The notes beneath the pieces were generated by a model. It did not search any database. It was not told where the DNA came from and saw only the letters and a list, made by a program, of their open reading frames with translations. Below are positions 3,847 through 61,555 of a stretch of 64,000 nucleotides of DNA, one piece after another. This DNA is from a phage: sequence record OZ346158.1. One strand, written 5' to 3'. A program made the position numbers and the translations under genes. Numbering within the stretch: the first letter of the stretch is position 1; each line of letters opens with the position of its first letter.

Positions 3847-4101
3847 ATGAAAATTACTCTGAAGCCAGAATGCGTTGAAAATGACCGAGCTTTTAAAGAT
3901 TGCACAATCGGTGCAATTTATGAAGCAGAGTTTTGTGAGAACCCTTTGGTAAAAGCCCTTCTGGAAGAAGGGGCCCCTTTATCACAAGAAGAGATCGATG
4001 AGCTGGAAAACTCAGCACAGTGCCTTACCTTTAAAGATGATGAAGGAGACTCTGTCTGGTGCACTGTTAATGAAGTCGTTTTTGTAAAACCTGAACATTA
4101 A
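3847..4101 (+). CDS. hypothetical protein (paralog of 4165-4437)
   Basis: Shares D(R/S)AF(K/R)DCT and KDD(E/Q)GD motifs with next gene. Confidence 0.55.
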   Translation: MKITLKPECVENDRAFKDCTIGAIYEAEFCENPLVKALLEEGAPLSQEEIDELENSAQCLTFKDDEGDSVWCTVNEVVFVKPEH

Positions 4102-4104
4102 TAC

Positions 4105-4133
4105 TTGACAACAGCGATAGGACCTAATACAAT
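4105..4133 (+). promoter_or_regulatory. sigma70-like promoter TTGACA-N17-TACAAT
   Basis: Hexamers and spacing read directly. Confidence 0.5.
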
Positions 4134-4164
4134 GGTCCTATCAAAACGAAAGGGGACCACAACA

Positions 4165-4437
4165 ATGACCAAACAATACCAACGAATTAAAGCCAAGGTT
4201 AAGCCAGACTATCTGGAGAAGGACTCTGCTTTTCGGGACTGCACAGCTGACAAAGTTTACACAGGGGCCGTCCTGCTGAACGATGAACTTGAAGTAGATA
4301 TTCTTGGTAAAGAGGCCACTATTAAGGACGACCAAGGCGATTATGTTTGCTGCACCACACGTGAGCTAGAAATCTTAGAATACTTCGGTGAAATCTTCAC
4401 CTCTCTTGATGATTACTTAGATGATGAGGAAGCGTGA
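4165..4437 (+). CDS. hypothetical protein (paralog of 3847-4101)
   Basis: SD aaagggga before ATG; motif similarity to upstream gene. Confidence 0.55.
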   Translation: MTKQYQRIKAKVKPDYLEKDSAFRDCTADKVYTGAVLLNDELEVDILGKEATIKDDQGDYVCCTTRELEILEYFGEIFTSLDDYLDDEEA

Positions 4438-21890: not shown

Positions 21891-22310
21891 ATGAACATTA
21901 AATCTAATAATCCGGCATATAGCTTTGATAACGCTTTTTGTCACGGTCCGGCGGCGAAAGGATTCGAAATCGATGGTAAACTAGTTATTGTCAATGTTGA
22001 CGGGGAAGAGGTTGCAGTATATCCGGTGGCAGACGTTAAAAGCCGTCTACAATGCCGCATCGATGTTACCGCCTACCAGCTTGATCCGGTCCGGGTAGTT
22101 GCCCTGGTCCTGGAAGAAGAAATTAAAGCAATGCACCACAGCAACAAGTTTATTGGTGACGCTCAAGATAATATGAAGGTGTGCCGCCATAAAGTTAATG
22201 AAGTGCTTAAAGAATATGGCTTTAAAGATCTGATGATCAAACGTGAGGAAAAATTCCGCTACCGTAACGACCTGGCAAATCGGATTTTTGAAATATACGA
22301 ATCATTATAA
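21891..22310 (+). CDS. hypothetical protein
   Basis: SD taagaggtaaaaac. Confidence 0.55.
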   Translation: MNIKSNNPAYSFDNAFCHGPAAKGFEIDGKLVIVNVDGEEVAVYPVADVKSRLQCRIDVTAYQLDPVRVVALVLEEEIKAMHHSNKFIGDAQDNMKVCRHKVNEVLKEYGFKDLMIKREEKFRYRNDLANRIFEIYESL

Positions 22311-22328
22311 TTTCTTAACTGAATTATC

Positions 22329-22356
22329 AAGGGGCTTAAAGGCCCCTTTCTTTTTG
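22329..22356 (+). terminator. intrinsic terminator closing the + strand block
   Basis: aaggggc-ttaaag-gcccctt followed by TCTTTTTG. Confidence 0.7.
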
Positions 22357-23123
22357 TCTGCTCTTCTCCTACCATAAACGGCCCTACCTGGCAAGTGGAA
22401 TAATTGACTAGCCATCAATCCCACATACTGTACAAATATACATGGAAAATAACTATTGCATAATTTTTCATTGTGTGGTAGCAAGTCCATTTTTACCCGT
22501 TTTCTCTCCCAAAAGTGCACGTAATGCCGCTATTGCACAAATTTTAACCTGATGCACATCTCCAATATCTTGTCAACAACTAAAAATCTTTATAAGTCAT
22601 ACACTTACACAGCATCGAAAGCGTGTTCTACGCGAAAAATCGAGTATAACTATAGCCGCCAGATCTCAGAATTCACGTACGCACGCCATTCTATAGCCTG
22701 CAAAGTATTTATTCCAACCACAGAATAACGGAATAGTCAATACCTGCATAAAATAATTATTCGTGTAAACTGCATAACATAAATCAGCTCAGGTGTCAAC
22801 ATTTTTCGTAAACAGTCCGAAATTATCACGATGAGTTATCATAAACAGAGAAATCTTTAGTCGTCTAATGTTTACTGTACATTACTATACTGACTGGAAT
22901 CATTAGATGACTAATACAATAGAACAAATTAATAATGTAATTATTTTACCTGTAACAATAAGGCAACTATGCAAACGAATGGCATGGCGCGACGGAGTCG
23001 CGACATAATATAAAAGCAGTAACCATCACCCCCGTGATAGTTTGTCTGCAAACTATTAATCAGATCATAGTTGCCTTGTATTTAGTTAATCATGACATAA
23101 CAAGCAAGGCAACTATAGATATA

Positions 23124-23381
23124 CTAAACCATAGCTTCAAAAGGAGTCATGAACGAATAAACGGCATCATCATCTGCTTCAGGGAATGCTCCCAAAGACT
23201 TCATATCTGAACCCTTGACAAATACAAGGTTTTGATCAAAGGCTTCTTGGGGGTCAATCCGATACATATTTCGTAGAATATCGCTTACCTCCTCATCAAG
23301 AGGTGAGTATGCTGTGCACGTTTTTCCGATCAAGCTTTGAGAATCAGGGTATCCACCTGAAGTTTTAAAATAAACAATCAT
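23124..23381 (-). CDS. hypothetical protein
   Basis: ORF at end of - strand block. Confidence 0.5.
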   Translation of the reverse strand: MIVYFKTSGGYPDSQSLIGKTCTAYSPLDEEVSDILRNMYRIDPQEAFDQNLVFVKGSDMKSLGAFPEADDDAVYSFMTPFEAMV

Positions 23382-23472
23382 ATAGTATCACCTCTGGTAA
23401 GAGATTGGGATTCCTTTCCCACAAATAATTACAAATCTTCCTTATCGAGGAAGTATGCTAATCCAAGCAGGA

Positions 23473-23742
23473 TTATTCCTCTACAATCTCATACACATCA
23501 GGAGTTACAATCAATTCTTCTCCGTTACCCGGTGCAACAAACACCACCAAACCTTCAGGTGTGTGCTTTTTAGCCATCTCGATAACATCTTCTCGCAGAG
23601 CTGGCTCCATCAGATCAAAACCTTCACCCAGGGCATCACGAACCACCTTCATATAGTCCACTGGTTGTGCTTCAACAATCATGCCTTCAACCAGTCCACA
23701 GTTTTTGTCTGCCAGCTCAGTTTTGAATAATTTAATTTTCAT
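23473..23742 (-). CDS. small protein, distant member of MKVK..EIVEE paralog family
   Basis: MKIKL N-terminus and EIVEE C-terminus shared with 25243/28892 genes. Confidence 0.5.
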   Translation of the reverse strand: MKIKLFKTELADKNCGLVEGMIVEAQPVDYMKVVRDALGEGFDLMEPALREDVIEMAKKHTPEGLVVFVAPGNGEELIVTPDVYEIVEE

Positions 23743-23879
23743 TTAGAGGTCTCCTCAATTATTTGATATTAATAGCCGTAACCTAACACATTAACTACAA
23801 CTGCGATTGCAAACATAATTTCAAAGCATGCAATCTCTACATTTGGGACTAATTTCTTAATCACACCCATTGTAGCACC

Positions 23880-24197
23880 TCATTTTCCAAAGTCAATCTT
23901 TACTTTGCCTTTCCCCTTACCTTTCTTTCCACCGCATTTAGCCAGCTGACGTGCTGCAACATCTACCATACGGTCAGTTGCCTCGTAAGCATCACTACCT
24001 TTAGCCTTGGCAATAACTTCTTTTCCAGAATTGTCAAAAATGAACGCCATAACTTCCTGGTGATCATTTTCAACTTTTACACTCACACGTGCATAGTTGG
24101 CAGAGGGGTGCAAACGCTCCAGTTTAGACATTTTGTTGGAAATGAAAGACACCATACCTTCAGTGATTTCTACGTTGCCAGTGATTTCAATTTGCAT
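23880..24197 (-). CDS. ribosome hibernation promoting factor / RaiA (S30AE family) homolog
   Basis: MQIEITGNVEITEGM...KLERL...VSVKVE and ...GSDAYEATDRMVDVAARQLAK closely parallel bacterial HPF (MQLNITGNNVEITEAL...KLARQL). Confidence 0.8.
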   Translation of the reverse strand: MQIEITGNVEITEGMVSFISNKMSKLERLHPSANYARVSVKVENDHQEVMAFIFDNSGKEVIAKAKGSDAYEATDRMVDVAARQLAKCGGKKGKGKGKVKIDFGK

Positions 24198-24279
24198 AAC
24201 GTGTTCCTTTTAAAGAAGAGGGAACCAAACCCTCTTTGAAAACAATGATACTAAATCTGAAGCGTTGTGTCAACAGTTT

Positions 24280-24570
24280 TTACAGATTGTTGTCGATAGT
24301 TTTTAAAATATCCACAGCAAGATCTGCCATTTTTCGAACATACTCTGCAAACTCAACAGGATCCTTGATCAAAGAATTCACAGGGTCGTACCCTAGAGCG
24401 TTCAAAATGGCTGCAGCATCTACAACCTTCTCATCATTTGCGAAGATCTCTCCATCAAACTTGTAGGTCCATTTTGAGTCAATCTTGGCAGGGAAGGATT
24501 GGTCAACGCTTGTTACACCATCCTTTTTAAACGCTCCGGTGTTATCAGTGTCCAGAACTAAATCCATCAT
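24280..24570 (-). CDS. hypothetical protein
   Basis: ORF. Confidence 0.5.
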   Translation of the reverse strand: MMDLVLDTDNTGAFKKDGVTSVDQSFPAKIDSKWTYKFDGEIFANDEKVVDAAAILNALGYDPVNSLIKDPVEFAEYVRKMADLAVDILKTIDNNL

Positions 24571-24998: not shown

Positions 24999-25253
24999 TC
25001 ACAGCTCTACAATATTTGCATCTGACCCTACCCCAAAGGCATAATAGGACTCTTCCCCGAAATAATATTCAGGTGCACCAGCGGTGATCAGGTCTGCTCC
25101 TAAGATAAACACTACGTTGTGGCCTACATAACTGTGATGTTGCCGAACAGGATCATCCCACGGCAACCCTTCAAAGTATACCGCAGGAACGACCTTTCCC
25201 TTCAGGAAGGATTGTCCCAAGTAGACGTTAGAATCAAGAATTTTAACCTTCAT
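24999..25253 (-). CDS. small protein, MKVK-LD/LIAAGA paralog family
   Basis: MKVKILDSNVYLGQ...GADLITAGA. Confidence 0.55.
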   Translation of the reverse strand: MKVKILDSNVYLGQSFLKGKVVPAVYFEGLPWDDPVRQHHSYVGHNVVFILGADLITAGAPEYYFGEESYYAFGVGSDANIVEL

Positions 25254-25470
25254 GATTGTCCTCCACTATCTCTACATCCTCACCTAGGGCAAAGTTGTAG
25301 GTCCACTGACTGTCAAAGCATTCCTGAGATGCACCAGCGGCAATAAGATCTGCCCCTTTTATTTTTAAAAGGTCGGGGTAATCTTCGTTAGGGACAGCAG
25401 TAAACACTTTCCCCACTAAGGGCTCCTGACCAATATAGAAGCTCGAATCTAAAACTTTAACTTTCATCAA
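25243..25470 (-). CDS. small protein, MKVK-LD/LIAAGA paralog family
   Basis: MKVKVLDSSFYIGQ...GADLIAAGA...EIVED. Confidence 0.55.
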   Translation of the reverse strand: MMKVKVLDSSFYIGQEPLVGKVFTAVPNEDYPDLLKIKGADLIAAGASQECFDSQWTYNFALGEDVEIVEDNHEG

Positions 25471-60742: not shown

Positions 60743-60817
60743 GCCCTGTTAGCTTAGTGGATAAAGCAGCGGCCTTCTAAGCCGTTGACACTGGTTCGAG
60801 TCCAGTACGGGGTGCCA
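60743..60817 (+). tRNA. tRNA-Arg (anticodon UCU)
   Basis: Hand-folded cloverleaf: acceptor gccctgt/acggggt, anticodon loop cuUCUaa, T-loop ttcgagt, encoded CCA. Confidence 0.85.
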
Positions 60818-60821
60818 AATT

Positions 60822-60908
60822 GGGGAGTTATCCCGTAGAGGTAGCGGTGTAGACTGTAAATCTATTGTCATTGCGACTCGGGTGGTTCGACTCCACCACT
60901 CCCCACCA
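60822..60908 (+). tRNA. tRNA-Tyr (anticodon GUA), long variable arm
   Basis: Acceptor ggggagt/actcccc, anticodon loop ctGTAaa, T-loop ttcgact, CCA. Confidence 0.85.
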
Positions 60909-61022
60909 AATTTATATTTTTAGATGCATAAATAATACAGATAATGGCATTGATATTTATCGTCGTTTATACTAGTCACTAACTGCTCGAAAATCAGTGT
61001 CATTATCAGTATAATTTATAAA

Positions 61023-61113
61023 GGAGGGTAGGGAGCAATGGTGCTCAAGCGGTCTTGAAAACCGTCCCGTTGAGGATGACTCGATGATGGTTCGATTCCA
61101 TTACTCTCCGCCA
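61023..61113 (+). tRNA. tRNA-Ser (anticodon UGA), long variable arm
   Basis: Acceptor ggagggt/actctcc, anticodon loop ctTGAaa, T-loop ttcgatt, CCA. Confidence 0.8.
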
Positions 61114-61211
61114 CATTGTTGACCTTGTAATTAAGCGAAAGCCGGAAGCAGAACCGGATTATCAAATGTTACAGTCGTCATCGCCGACTAGCAACATGGT
61201 CAACATACTGA

Positions 61212-61308
61212 GCTAGGTAAGCCCTTTGGCAAGGGCGAGGATTTTTAATCCTGAAAATAGACGAGGTAGTCGTTGAATACATAGGTGGTTCGATTCCATC
61301 ACCTAGCA
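61212..61308 (+). tRNA. atypical tRNA-like gene (possible tRNA-Lys UUU with about 30-nt variable region)
   Basis: Perfect 7-bp acceptor gctaggt/acctagc, D-arm gccc..gggc, T-loop ttcgatt; anticodon arm imperfect; 97 nt. Confidence 0.4.
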
Positions 61309-61315
61309 CCTTTTT

Positions 61316-61388
61316 GCTGATGTAGCACAATCGGTAGTGCAATTGATTTGTAATCAATAGGTTGTAGGTTCAAGTCCTGCCATCAGCA
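61316..61388 (+). tRNA. tRNA-Thr (anticodon UGU)
   Basis: Acceptor gctgatg/catcagc, anticodon stem attga/tcaat, loop ttTGTaa, T-loop ttcaagt. Confidence 0.85.
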
Positions 61389-61392
61389 CCAA

Positions 61393-61467
61393 GGCCCTGT
61401 AGCTGGAAGGTTCAAGCAAGCGACTCATAATCGCCAGACGGTGGTTCAATTCCACCCAGGGCCACCA
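61393..61467 (+). tRNA. tRNA-Met/Ile2 (anticodon CAU)
   Basis: Acceptor ggccctg/cagggcc, anticodon loop ctCATaa, T-loop ttcaatt, CCA. Confidence 0.85.
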
Positions 61468-61478
61468 AATAGTAAATA

Positions 61479-61555
61479 CTCCGCGTAGCTCAGCTTGGTA
61501 GAGCGCCTGATTTGGGATCAGGAGGTCGAGTGTTCGAATCACTCCGTGGAGACCA
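61479..61555 (+). tRNA. tRNA-Pro (anticodon UGG)
   Basis: D-arm tagctcagcttggtagagc, anticodon loop ttTGGga, T-loop ttcgaat, CCA. Confidence 0.85.

What the first reader, a model, noticed from the sequence alone, without database searches (positions are those of the whole stretch)
23880..24197. Phage-encoded ribosome hibernation factor (HPF/RaiA) homolog
The first 45 residues and the C-terminal helix track bacterial HPF closely (MQIEITGNVEITEGM... versus MQLNITGNNVEITEAL...). A phage HPF could park or protect host ribosomes, or counter translation-targeting defences. The phage copy ends in a Lys/Gly-rich tail (GGKKGKGKGKVKIDFGK) absent from short HPF.
Basis: partly seen in the sequence, partly recalled or inferred. 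Interest (0 to 1): 0.6.

Follow-up and report, generated by a model that had tools for sequence, protein, structure and literature searches.

The report
Known phage HPF-family ribosome factor
An rV5-like E. coli phage carries a well-conserved early gene for a relative of the bacterial ribosome hibernation factor HPF. This is real but already annotated and published, and the one published ribosome-binding test was negative under stringent salt, so its job is still open.

Summary
Window 23880..24197 (minus strand) encodes a 105-aa protein that belongs to the HPF/YfiA (Ribosomal_S30AE) family. It passes the Pfam and TIGR00741 curated cut-offs. It is 41-43% identical to E. coli HPF over residues 1-89. 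[quoted passage not shown]

The window is a Vequintavirus (rV5-like coliphage). The gene is rV5 ORF144, annotated since the original GenBank record together with its sigma-70 promoter P144. Mizuno et al. 2019 analysed it as a phage HPF and expressed it in E. coli. They did not find it in ribosomes pelleted through 500 mM NH4Cl, and 100S levels did not change.

New here:
- The gene is syntenic in a divergent sister lineage (64% identity).
- It is under strong purifying selection (dN/dS about 0.05-0.14), tail included.
- It keeps R83, K87 and K91 but has lost basic residues that are about 95% conserved in cellular homologs (R/K17, K80, K89). It gained K64, K66 and a +6 tail.

Most likely it is a salt-labile binder of the 30S decoding channel with a remodelled interface. 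Its physiological role is unproven. Novelty: already known.

The parts
23880..24197 (-). Complete CDS (105 codons plus TGA) of the phage HPF/YfiA-family protein, the ortholog of rV5 ORF144 / ABI79209 and BASEL bas57_0152.
   Evidence: ORF list and sequence. Pfam and NCBIfam hits above cut-off. 100% identical over residues 1-86 to MaxTheCat, pangalan and APECc02. Differs from MaxTheCat only at residue 105 (K instead of E).
23934..24197 (-). Core S30AE domain, residues 1-88: beta1 2-7, alpha1 13-29, beta2 33-43, beta3 46-55, beta4 60-67, alpha2 from residue 70.
   Evidence: AlphaFold2 model with pLDDT above 90 over most of the core. Foldseek top 36 PDB hits are all HPF/YfiA/pY, with rmsd 1.0-1.1 A to V. 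cholerae HPF and to E. coli HPF in the 100S ribosome.
23883..23933 (-). C-terminal tail, residues 89-105 (GGKKGKGKGKVKIDFGK). Net charge +6, predicted disordered, ends in K-I-D-F.
   Evidence: pLDDT below 50 for residues 91-105. Charge and pI. The tail is conserved in 9 Vequintavirus copies despite synonymous changes. The sister lineage has a different basic tail ending K-W-D-Y.
24245..24273 (-). Sigma-70-type promoter TTGACA-17-TATCAT directly upstream of the gene, equivalent to rV5 'P144'.
   Evidence: 11 of 12 consensus match. Annotated as a Sigma70-type promoter P144 in DQ832317. The block AAACTGTTGACAC is invariant in 9 aligned phages, including the divergent L004 lineage.
24205..24209 (-). 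Shine-Dalgarno-like AAGGA, 7 nt before the ATG.
   Evidence: Read directly from the sequence. Conserved in the Vequintavirus copies.
24216..24236 (-). 7-bp hairpin between the promoter and the SD, at the 5' end of the predicted transcript. Weak and possibly not functional.
   Evidence: MFE -9.9 kcal/mol but z-score only -1.03 against shuffles. One stem position is changed without compensation in V18 and A141.

Best explanation
The gene encodes a genuine member of the HPF/YfiA (S30AE) family. It was inherited vertically in rV5-like phages and is transcribed by host RNA polymerase from its own sigma-70 promoter within a long block of small takeover-type ORFs.

Inferred mechanism: like its cellular relatives, the protein sits in the channel between the head and body of the 30S subunit of vacant host ribosomes, over the A/P-site tRNA and mRNA positions. 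It would use the retained alpha2 residues R83 (which contacts m4Cm1402 in cellular HPF/YfiA), K87 and K91, together with the beta-sheet face.

The interface has been remodelled. Several otherwise near-invariant residues are gone: R/K17, K80, K89 and E51. New lysines on beta4 (K64, K66) and a flexible +6 Lys/Gly tail have been added. The tail is 10 residues longer than that of E. coli HPF. It probably runs along the rRNA toward the mRNA-channel and RMF side, as the YfiA tail does. This would make binding electrostatic and salt-labile. It would favour a YfiA-like outcome, with 70S monomers occupied and RMF-driven 100S formation not promoted.

Shown here: family membership, fold, conservation, selection, promoter and synteny. 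Inferred: ribosome binding, the path of the tail and the physiological benefit (keeping or shielding idle host ribosomes during takeover).
For: Family and fold:
- Pfam 48.9 bits against 23.7, and TIGR00741 46.1 against 40.9.
- PDB sequence hits are only HPF/YfiA.
- AF2 pLDDT is 85.8 and the top 36 Foldseek PDB hits are all hibernation factors, with rmsd 1.0-1.1 A.

Retention of surface residues whose only known role is rRNA contact:
- Against 135 cellular homologs, the phage keeps K23, K/R26, R29, D69, Y71, D75, R83, Q84, K87 and K91.
- The cryo-EM preprint 10.1101/2025.10.07.680626 names K80, R83, K87 and K91 as the ribosome-contacting residues shared by HPF and YfiA, with R83 the single essential arginine at m4Cm1402.

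Selection and age:
- dN/dS is 0.05-0.14 across Vequintavirus copies with dS up to 0.66.
- Tail codons vary synonymously.
- An ortholog at 64% identity lies in a colinear block of a divergent ~137-kb phage lineage, with dS saturated.

Expression signals: a conserved sigma-70 promoter and an SD.

The YfiA tail heads toward the RMF site.
Against: - The only experiment found was negative. rV5 HPF expressed in E. coli NM522 was detected in crude extract but not in 70S/100S fractions, and 100S abundance did not change. Conditions were harvest at OD600 = 1 and a 500 mM NH4Cl cushion.
- Both phage lineages have replaced residues that are 94-96% conserved in cellular homologs: R/K17 to V, M70 to A, K80 to V/T, plus K89 to G/S and E/D51 to M/S. 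K80 and K89 are direct rRNA contacts.
- The protein does not reach the equivalog cut-off of either HPF (56 against 125) or RaiA (18 against 158).
- No transcript or protein time course from infected cells was found.
Confidence: 0.55

Rival explanations
1. Anti-hibernation competitor. The protein still enters the HPF/YfiA site but binds weakly and reversibly. Its main effect is to displace or exclude host HPF, YfiA and RMF, so that ribosomes of stressed or stationary-phase hosts are not locked into 100S or deeply silenced 70S and stay available for phage mRNAs. This is the hypothesis of Mizuno et al. 2019.
For: - Loss of K80, K89 and R/K17 predicts lower affinity than host factors.
- A longer basic tail could clash with RMF as the YfiA tail does.
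- Absence from salt-washed ribosomes fits weak binding.
- Early sigma-70 expression fits a takeover role.
- Mizuno et al. propose exactly this.
Against: - Expression in E. coli gave no discernible change in the small 100S fraction.
- A weak binder would have to be made in large amounts to compete with host factors.
- The +6 tail and the added lysines K64 and K66 argue for compensated rather than reduced affinity.
- No infection data were found.
Confidence: 0.2
2. Repurposed fold. The protein no longer acts on ribosomes. The S30AE/dsRBD-like scaffold and basic tail bind another target, such as a host protein, another RNA or a nucleotide signal. Phages do this with structurally similar but sequence-unrelated proteins: T7 Gp1.2 inhibits dGTPase and SPO1 Acb4 is a CBASS signal sponge.
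For: - The ribosome association test was negative.
- The phage clade has substitutions at near-invariant positions.
- The authors of T7 Gp1.2 and Acb4 report HPF/YfiA among their closest structural matches.
- Gp1.2 appears as a weak Foldseek hit (rank 38, TM 0.43).
Against: - Gp1.2 and Acb4 have no detectable sequence similarity to HPF. This protein is 41-43% identical to E. coli HPF and keeps the exposed rRNA-contact residues R83, Q84, K87 and K91 in a lineage old enough for dS to saturate.
- All 36 significant PDB fold hits are hibernation factors, and Acb4 is not among the top 50.
- There are no PADLOC hits.
Confidence: 0.2
3. Passenger gene. It is a recently captured host hpf with no role for the phage, or a decaying one.
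For: Its nearest cellular relatives are enterobacterial short HPFs (best about 45% identity). Mizuno et al. described the transfer as relatively recent.
Against: - No cellular protein above 50% identity was found among 1.84 billion cluster representatives.
- The gene is present in about 119 phage records.
- It is syntenic in a divergent sister lineage.
- dN/dS is 0.05-0.14.
- It has its own conserved promoter.
Confidence: 0.03

Closest known systems
E. coli short HPF (YhbH; PDB 2RQL, 4V8H, 6H4N, 6Y69)
   Same: Best sequence match among solved structures (E 6e-12, 41-43% identity over residues 1-89). [quoted passage not shown] Shares the MQ-I-TG-N-VEITE N-terminus and D69, Y71, D75, R83, Q84, K87 and K91. 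The HPF equivalog model scores far above the RaiA model (56 against 18 bits).
   Different: - Below the equivalog cut-off (125).
- One-residue deletion in the beta1-alpha1 loop and a one-residue insertion in the beta3-beta4 loop.
- R17 to V, E51 to M, T53 to F, M70 to A, K80 to V, K89 to G.
- 10 residues longer, with a (KG)n tail.
- Sits in a phage early-gene block with a sigma-70 promoter, not downstream of rpoN.
- No effect on 100S when expressed.
E. coli YfiA / RaiA (protein Y; PDB 1N3G, 4V8I, 4Y4O)
   Same: Same fold and binding-site family. Both carry a C-terminal extension beyond alpha2, and in YfiA this extension heads toward the RMF site and prevents 100S formation. The total lengths are intermediate to similar (105 against 113 aa).
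   Different: Only about 22-24% identity. The RaiA equivalog scores 18 bits against a cut-off of 158. The YfiA tail ends in an acidic run (VEEVEEE), whereas the phage tail is strongly basic.
Other phage S30AE proteins (Cronobacter phage GAP32, E. coli phage PBECO4, Xanthomonas phage XaC1)
   Same: Phage-encoded Ribosomal_S30AE proteins in large myovirus or jumbo genomes. Recognised in Mizuno et al. 2019 and in BFVD and INPHARED annotations.
   Different: Only 17-22% identical to the Vequintavirus protein, and they fall in a different PHROG (phrog_8990 against phrog_12469). XaC1 keeps DMY and K80 but has Q at position 83 and a long acidic tail. These are evidently independent acquisitions.
T7 Gp1.2 and SPO1 Acb4 (phage inhibitors with HPF-like or dsRBD-like folds)
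   Same: Small phage proteins whose closest structural matches include HPF/YfiA.
   Different: No sequence homology, and different helix packing. Only a marginal Foldseek match here (TM 0.43). Their targets are dGTPase and cyclic nucleotides, not ribosomes.

Membership tests
HPF/YfiA family (Pfam PF02482 Ribosomal_S30AE; TIGR00741) | Profile match above the curated family thresholds | tested here: met
   PF02482 scores 48.9 bits against 23.7. TIGR00741 scores 46.1 against 40.9.
HPF/YfiA family (Pfam PF02482 Ribosomal_S30AE; TIGR00741) | [quoted passage not shown] | tested here: met
   The AF2 model has elements E2-7, H13-29, E33-43, E46-55, E60-67 and H70-92. The top 36 PDB fold hits are all HPF/YfiA/pY, with rmsd 1.0-1.6 A for the best.
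HPF/YfiA family (Pfam PF02482 Ribosomal_S30AE; TIGR00741) | Conserved arginine R83 (contacts m4Cm1402) together with K87 and K91 on alpha2 | tested here: met
   R83, Q84, K87 and K91 are present. Each is 94-96% conserved in 135 cellular homologs.
HPF/YfiA family (Pfam PF02482 Ribosomal_S30AE; TIGR00741) | Remaining near-invariant basic contacts (R/K17, K80, K89) and the DMY motif | tested here: not met
   The phage has V16, V80, G89 and D-A-Y. The sister lineage has V, T80, S89 and D-A-Y.
HPF/YfiA family (Pfam PF02482 Ribosomal_S30AE; TIGR00741) | Binding in the 30S decoding channel of vacant ribosomes | not testable with these tools
   The published test found no protein in 70S/100S pelleted through 500 mM NH4Cl from late-exponential cells. 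The authors considered it inconclusive.
Short HPF (YhbH) equivalog, NF007780 | Equivalog-level score (at least 125 bits) | tested here: not met
   56.2 bits.
Short HPF (YhbH) equivalog, NF007780 | Promotes conversion to 100S together with RMF | not testable with these tools
   Mizuno et al. saw no discernible effect on 100S.
Short HPF (YhbH) equivalog, NF007780 | Location in the rpoN-hpf-ptsN operon | tested here: not met
   The cellular context is seen in Salmonella locus L012. The phage gene lies among small unknown ORFs with its own promoter.
RaiA / YfiA equivalog, NF007654 | Equivalog-level score (at least 158 bits) | tested here: not met
   18.2 bits.
RaiA / YfiA equivalog, NF007654 | C-terminal extension that occupies the RMF side of the channel | tested here: inconclusive
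   A 17-residue disordered extension exists. It has no sequence similarity to the YfiA tail and carries the opposite charge. Its path on the ribosome could not be modelled.
Long HPF (Gram-positive type) | C-terminal dimerisation domain (Ribosom_S30AE_C) | tested here: not met
   The protein is 105 aa with no second Pfam domain.

The most novel reading that the evidence does not exclude
The Vequintavirus protein is a re-engineered hibernation factor rather than a plain copy. It traded three conserved rRNA-contact lysines or arginines for a flexible (KG)n tail with a conserved K-[IW]-D-[FY] end. It may act early in infection either to block RMF/HPF-driven 100S formation (anti-hibernation) or to shield the 16S decoding centre and 3' end of idle ribosomes from host or defence ribonucleases. 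That would be a phage counter-measure at the level of ribosome dormancy.
Probability: 0.25. Interest if true: 0.6.

Novelty: already known. Interest (0 to 1): 0.3.

Why it matters
Phage genes that act on the host translation machinery are few, and the role of phage-encoded hibernation-factor homologs has no experimental answer. This gene sits in about 119 sequenced rV5-like coliphages, including BASEL collection members that are easy to manipulate, so it is a convenient test case.

The residue-level picture obtained here gives concrete mutants and assay conditions for repeating the one inconclusive published experiment:
- three of the six basic positions on alpha2 (80, 83, 87, 89, 91, 93) are kept;
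- three near-invariant basic residues are lost (R/K17, K80, K89);
- a basic tail is gained and is under selection.

As a discovery, however, it is not new. The annotation dates from the rV5 GenBank record, and the phage-HPF idea and a first test were published in 2019.

Tried and rejected
- The word-indexed homolog search with the single protein gave only 5 hits, all phage.
- The IMG/VR scan gave only 2 loci, so extra copies were fetched from GenBank records instead.
- The exhaustive HMMER search gave one spurious strong hit, P0006, a 1160-aa repeat protein. It was discarded on inspection.
- The 5'-UTR hairpin was considered as a regulatory element or terminator and rejected as unsupported: z = -1.03 and an uncompensated stem change.
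- Rfam found nothing in 22200-24400.
- PADLOC found nothing for the gene or three neighbours.
- Pfam found nothing for ten neighbouring ORFs, and PHROGs gave only 'unknown function' families. Context therefore gives no functional hint.
- Literature searches for rV5 with 'hibernation promoting factor', and for phage HPF wording variants, found no functional study other than Mizuno et al. 2019. The BASEL paper and the Paride paper say nothing on this gene.
- An Acb4-like nucleotide-sponge reading was considered and given low weight because Acb4 does not appear among the fold hits.
- I could not dock the model onto a ribosome because no coordinates are available in the sandbox.

Full report
**1. 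The observation**

Window 23880..24197 on the minus strand is an ATG-initiated ORF of 105 codons.
- It matches Pfam Ribosomal_S30AE (PF02482) at 48.9 bits against a gathering score of 23.7, E 1.1e-12, over residues 3-88.
- It matches the NCBIfam HPF/YfiA family model TIGR00741 at 46.1 bits against a cut-off of 40.9.
- Among solved structures the best sequence match is E. coli HPF (2RQL, 4V8H, 6H4N), at E about 6e-12, aligned 1-89.

**2. What genome this is, and what was already known**

The region is 99.9% identical to Escherichia phages pangalan, MaxTheCat (BASEL Bas57) and CarlMeissner. It is 95-99% identical to about 100 other Vequintavirus (rV5-like) records.

The protein is found by tblastn in 119 phage records. 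All but one are Vequintavirus. They name it variously 'sigma 54 modulation factor', 'ribosome hibernation factor', 'hpf' or 'RaiA'.

In the original rV5 record (DQ832317) the gene is ORF144, 'sigma 54 modulation factor', and is preceded by an annotated 'Sigma70-type promoter P144'. The rV5 genome paper places it in a region of 88 mainly small ORFs and reports 33 sigma-70-like promoters.

Mizuno et al. 2019 (Nat Commun 10:752, PMC6375957) list exactly this protein (ABI79209, 105 aa) as one of seven phage HPFs. They place it among gammaproteobacterial HPFs and propose that viral HPF might compete with the host factor and prevent ribosome dimers. They also tested it. The protein was expressed from pBAD24 in E. 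coli NM522 and detected by MS in crude extract (peptides include the C-terminal VKIDFGE). It was not detected in 70S or 100S fractions, and the 100S peak did not change. Cells were harvested at OD600 = 1, and ribosomes were pelleted through a 500 mM NH4Cl sucrose cushion. The authors themselves name growth phase, salt stringency or genuine loss of binding as possible reasons. I found no later functional study.

**3. Structure**

I used a 71-sequence alignment (A2). AlphaFold2 gives mean pLDDT 85.8 and pTM 0.75. [quoted passage not shown] Residues 91-105 are disordered, with pLDDT below 50.

Foldseek against the PDB returns 36 hits at E <= 0.001, and all of them are HPF, YfiA, pY or long-HPF N-domains. 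The best are V. cholerae HPF (rmsd 1.0 A) and E. coli HPF in the 100S ribosome (rmsd 1.1 A, 41% identity). The next hits are marginal and include T7 Gp1.2 at TM 0.43. Against viral models, the significant hits are other phage S30AE proteins (GAP32, PBECO4 and three unnamed) at 17-28% identity.

**4. Which subtype**

The short-HPF equivalog model scores 56 bits (cut-off 125), and the RaiA equivalog scores 18 bits (cut-off 158). There is no long-HPF C-terminal domain. So the protein is HPF-like rather than YfiA-like in sequence, but it is an equivalog of neither.

It has its own PHROG (12469, 'unknown function', E 4e-70), separate from the generic phage S30AE PHROG 8990 (E 9e-7).

**5. Residue-level comparison**

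I aligned the protein with 135 cellular homologs. This sample is biased toward proteobacterial short HPF/RaiA.

Conserved positions that the phage keeps:
- M1, T6, G7, T13, K23, L27, E28, R29, V43, E44, A52, A63, D69, Y71, A73, D75, D79, R83, Q84, K87 and K91 (E. coli HPF numbering).

Conserved positions where both phage lineages differ:

| Position | Cellular homologs | Phage lineages |
|---|---|---|
| R/K17 | 95% basic | V |
| E/D51 | 99% acidic | M / S |
| M70 | 94% | A |
| K80 | 96% | V / T |
| L81 | 93% | A |
| H88-K89-E90 | conserved | CGG / YSK |

Two positions on beta4 that are usually acidic or polar have become lysines in the phage: 64 (D 47%) and 66 (E 53%).

A cryo-EM preprint on four Gram-negative hibernating ribosomes (10.1101/2025.10.07.680626) states the following:
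- K80, R83, K87 and K91 are the ribosome-contacting residues identical between E. coli HPF and YfiA.
- Positions 80, 83, 87, 89, 91 and 93 form the positive face of alpha2.
- R83 is the single essential arginine contacting m4Cm1402.
- T53 with V/H62 contacts m2G966.

The phage thus keeps three of the six alpha2 basic positions, including R83. It has I62 but F at the T53 position.

The core (residues 1-88) has pI 5.6, like E. coli HPF. The tail carries +6 and lifts the whole protein to pI 9.2.

**6. The tail**

Tail length after alpha2 has a median of 19 residues in the sampled cellular homologs, while E. coli HPF has 7. Length alone is therefore not unusual. A (KG)n composition, however, is found only in the Vequintavirus cluster.

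Within nine Vequintavirus copies the tail is conserved at the protein level while its codons vary synonymously, most clearly in the IMG/VR copy L003. The sister lineage has a different basic tail, KYSKSKGIDKRTAKWDY. Both end in K-[IW]-D-[FY].

The window's copy is the only one seen with K105. All the others have E105 or a variant C-terminus.

**7. Evolution**

An exhaustive HMMER search of 1.84 billion cluster representatives finds only 23 proteins at E <= 0.001. The nearest is P0004 (65% identity). The best cellular proteins are about 45% identical and resemble enterobacterial HPF.

P0004 lies on contigs of up to about 137 kb, in a block colinear with window 28.2-23.1 kb whose neighbours are 42-83% identical. 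It is absent from the phage GenBank collection searched.

Pairwise dN/dS among Vequintavirus copies is 0.05-0.14, with dS up to 0.66. The ratio of mean dN to mean dS over 35 pairs is 0.05. dS is saturated against the sister lineage, where dN is about 0.30.

The gene is therefore an old, vertically inherited and selected component of these phages. It is not a recent passenger.

**8. Expression signals and context**

A TTGACA-17-TATCAT promoter lies at 24273..24245 on the minus strand (11/12 match). It starts 6 nt after the stop codon of the upstream ORF. Its -35 block AAACTGTTGACAC is invariant in all nine aligned phages, including the sister lineage. An AAGGA Shine-Dalgarno sits 7 nt before the ATG. 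A 7-bp hairpin lies between the promoter and the SD, but it is not better than shuffled controls (z = -1.03) and is not maintained by compensatory change.

None of ten neighbouring ORFs has a Pfam hit, and all fall in PHROGs of unknown function. PADLOC and Rfam give nothing. The arrangement is many small ORFs with sigma-70 promoters inside rV5 transcription unit 82-163. That arrangement is typical of early host-takeover genes, but the timing is inferred and has not been measured.

**9. Interpretation**

Family membership is secure. The most economical mechanism is that the protein still binds the HPF/YfiA site on vacant 30S/70S. Exposed residues whose only known role is rRNA contact (R83, Q84, K87, K91, K23, K26) have been kept under purifying selection over a long divergence.

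The loss of R/K17, K80 and K89, together with the gain of K64, K66 and a +6 disordered tail, points to a remodelled and more electrostatic interface. Such an interface would be expected to be salt-sensitive, and that would reconcile the model with the negative result at 500 mM NH4Cl.

The tail is 10 residues longer than in E. coli HPF, and the YfiA tail is known to head toward the RMF site. A YfiA-like, 100S-antagonising outcome is therefore plausible. This step is inference. Whether the benefit to the phage is ribosome protection, prevention of host hibernation, or something else cannot be decided with these data.

The main rival is that the fold has been put to a non-ribosomal use, as in T7 Gp1.2 or SPO1 Acb4. 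It is kept at about 0.2 because of the negative binding test and the clade-specific substitutions.

**10. Verdict**

The functional ideas are reasonable but unproven, and they have been partly challenged by one published experiment. The finding is already known: it is annotated in the rV5 GenBank record and was discussed and tested in 2019.

The modest added value here is:
- the residue-level map of retained and lost contacts;
- the evidence of selection on the tail;
- the divergent syntenic ortholog;
- a clear design for a decisive re-test.

Noticed in passing
window ~23121-23127 (junction); compare MZ501094.1 90874-97319: Relative to MaxTheCat, the window lacks 6,446 bp just downstream of the HPF block. 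The missing stretch covers most of the ~2.5-kb ORF-free region noted in rV5 plus 17 small ORFs (bas57_0132-0148). The junction has about 7 nt of filler (ATACTAA), and ORF 23124..23381(-) ends two residues early. None of 116 or more database Vequintaviruses shares this junction.
   Followed up: partly
window 60743-61555 (+): A tRNA cluster: Arg-TCT, Tyr-GTA, Ser-TGA, Thr-TGT, Met-CAT, Pro-TGG. It also contains a 99-nt ARAGORN call at 61212-61310 with an apparent 4-base anticodon, and Rfam scores that one only 35.5 bits. The tRNA-Ser call (61023-61113) did not reach the Rfam gathering score.
   Followed up: partly
public records MG0656xx (e.g. L011 = MG065672.1): Eighteen to nineteen 'UNVERIFIED: Campylobacter phage' GenBank records are 95-98% identical to E. 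coli Vequintaviruses across this region and are classified as Vequintavirus. The host label looks doubtful.
   Followed up: no
window 24999-25253 (-) and 25243-25470 (-): Two adjacent, slightly overlapping ORFs (84 and 75 aa) both match PHROG 5009 (unknown function), so they are a tandem duplication in the early block.
   Followed up: no
window 23769-23870 (-): A 33-aa strongly hydrophobic ORF (MGVIKKLVPNVEIACFEIMFAIAVVVNVLGYGY, PHROG 15151). Its GAGGTG ribosome-binding site overlaps the HPF stop codon, which suggests translational coupling. No counterpart of it was seen in the tblastx comparison with the sister-lineage locus L004.
   Followed up: no
public records MT884008-MT884011, OR062528, OR062530: The HPF ortholog is annotated 'ATP-dependent protease La type I' in several Vequintavirus records. 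This is an evident mis-annotation.
   Followed up: no
L004-L006 (Logan contigs ERR6997038_58 etc.), gene at 4001-4312: A divergent rV5-like phage lineage, with contigs up to about 137 kb, carries a 64%-identical syntenic HPF with a different basic tail. It is absent from the INPHARED copy searched, although NCBI holds the protein under an E. coli name.
   Followed up: partly
L009 (phage V18) 601-921; window residue 105: V18-type phages carry an extra Asn (ITGNNVEIT), which restores the beta1-alpha1 loop length of E. coli HPF. The JES2013 copy starts with GTG. The window's copy alone ends in K105 instead of E105.
   Followed up: partly
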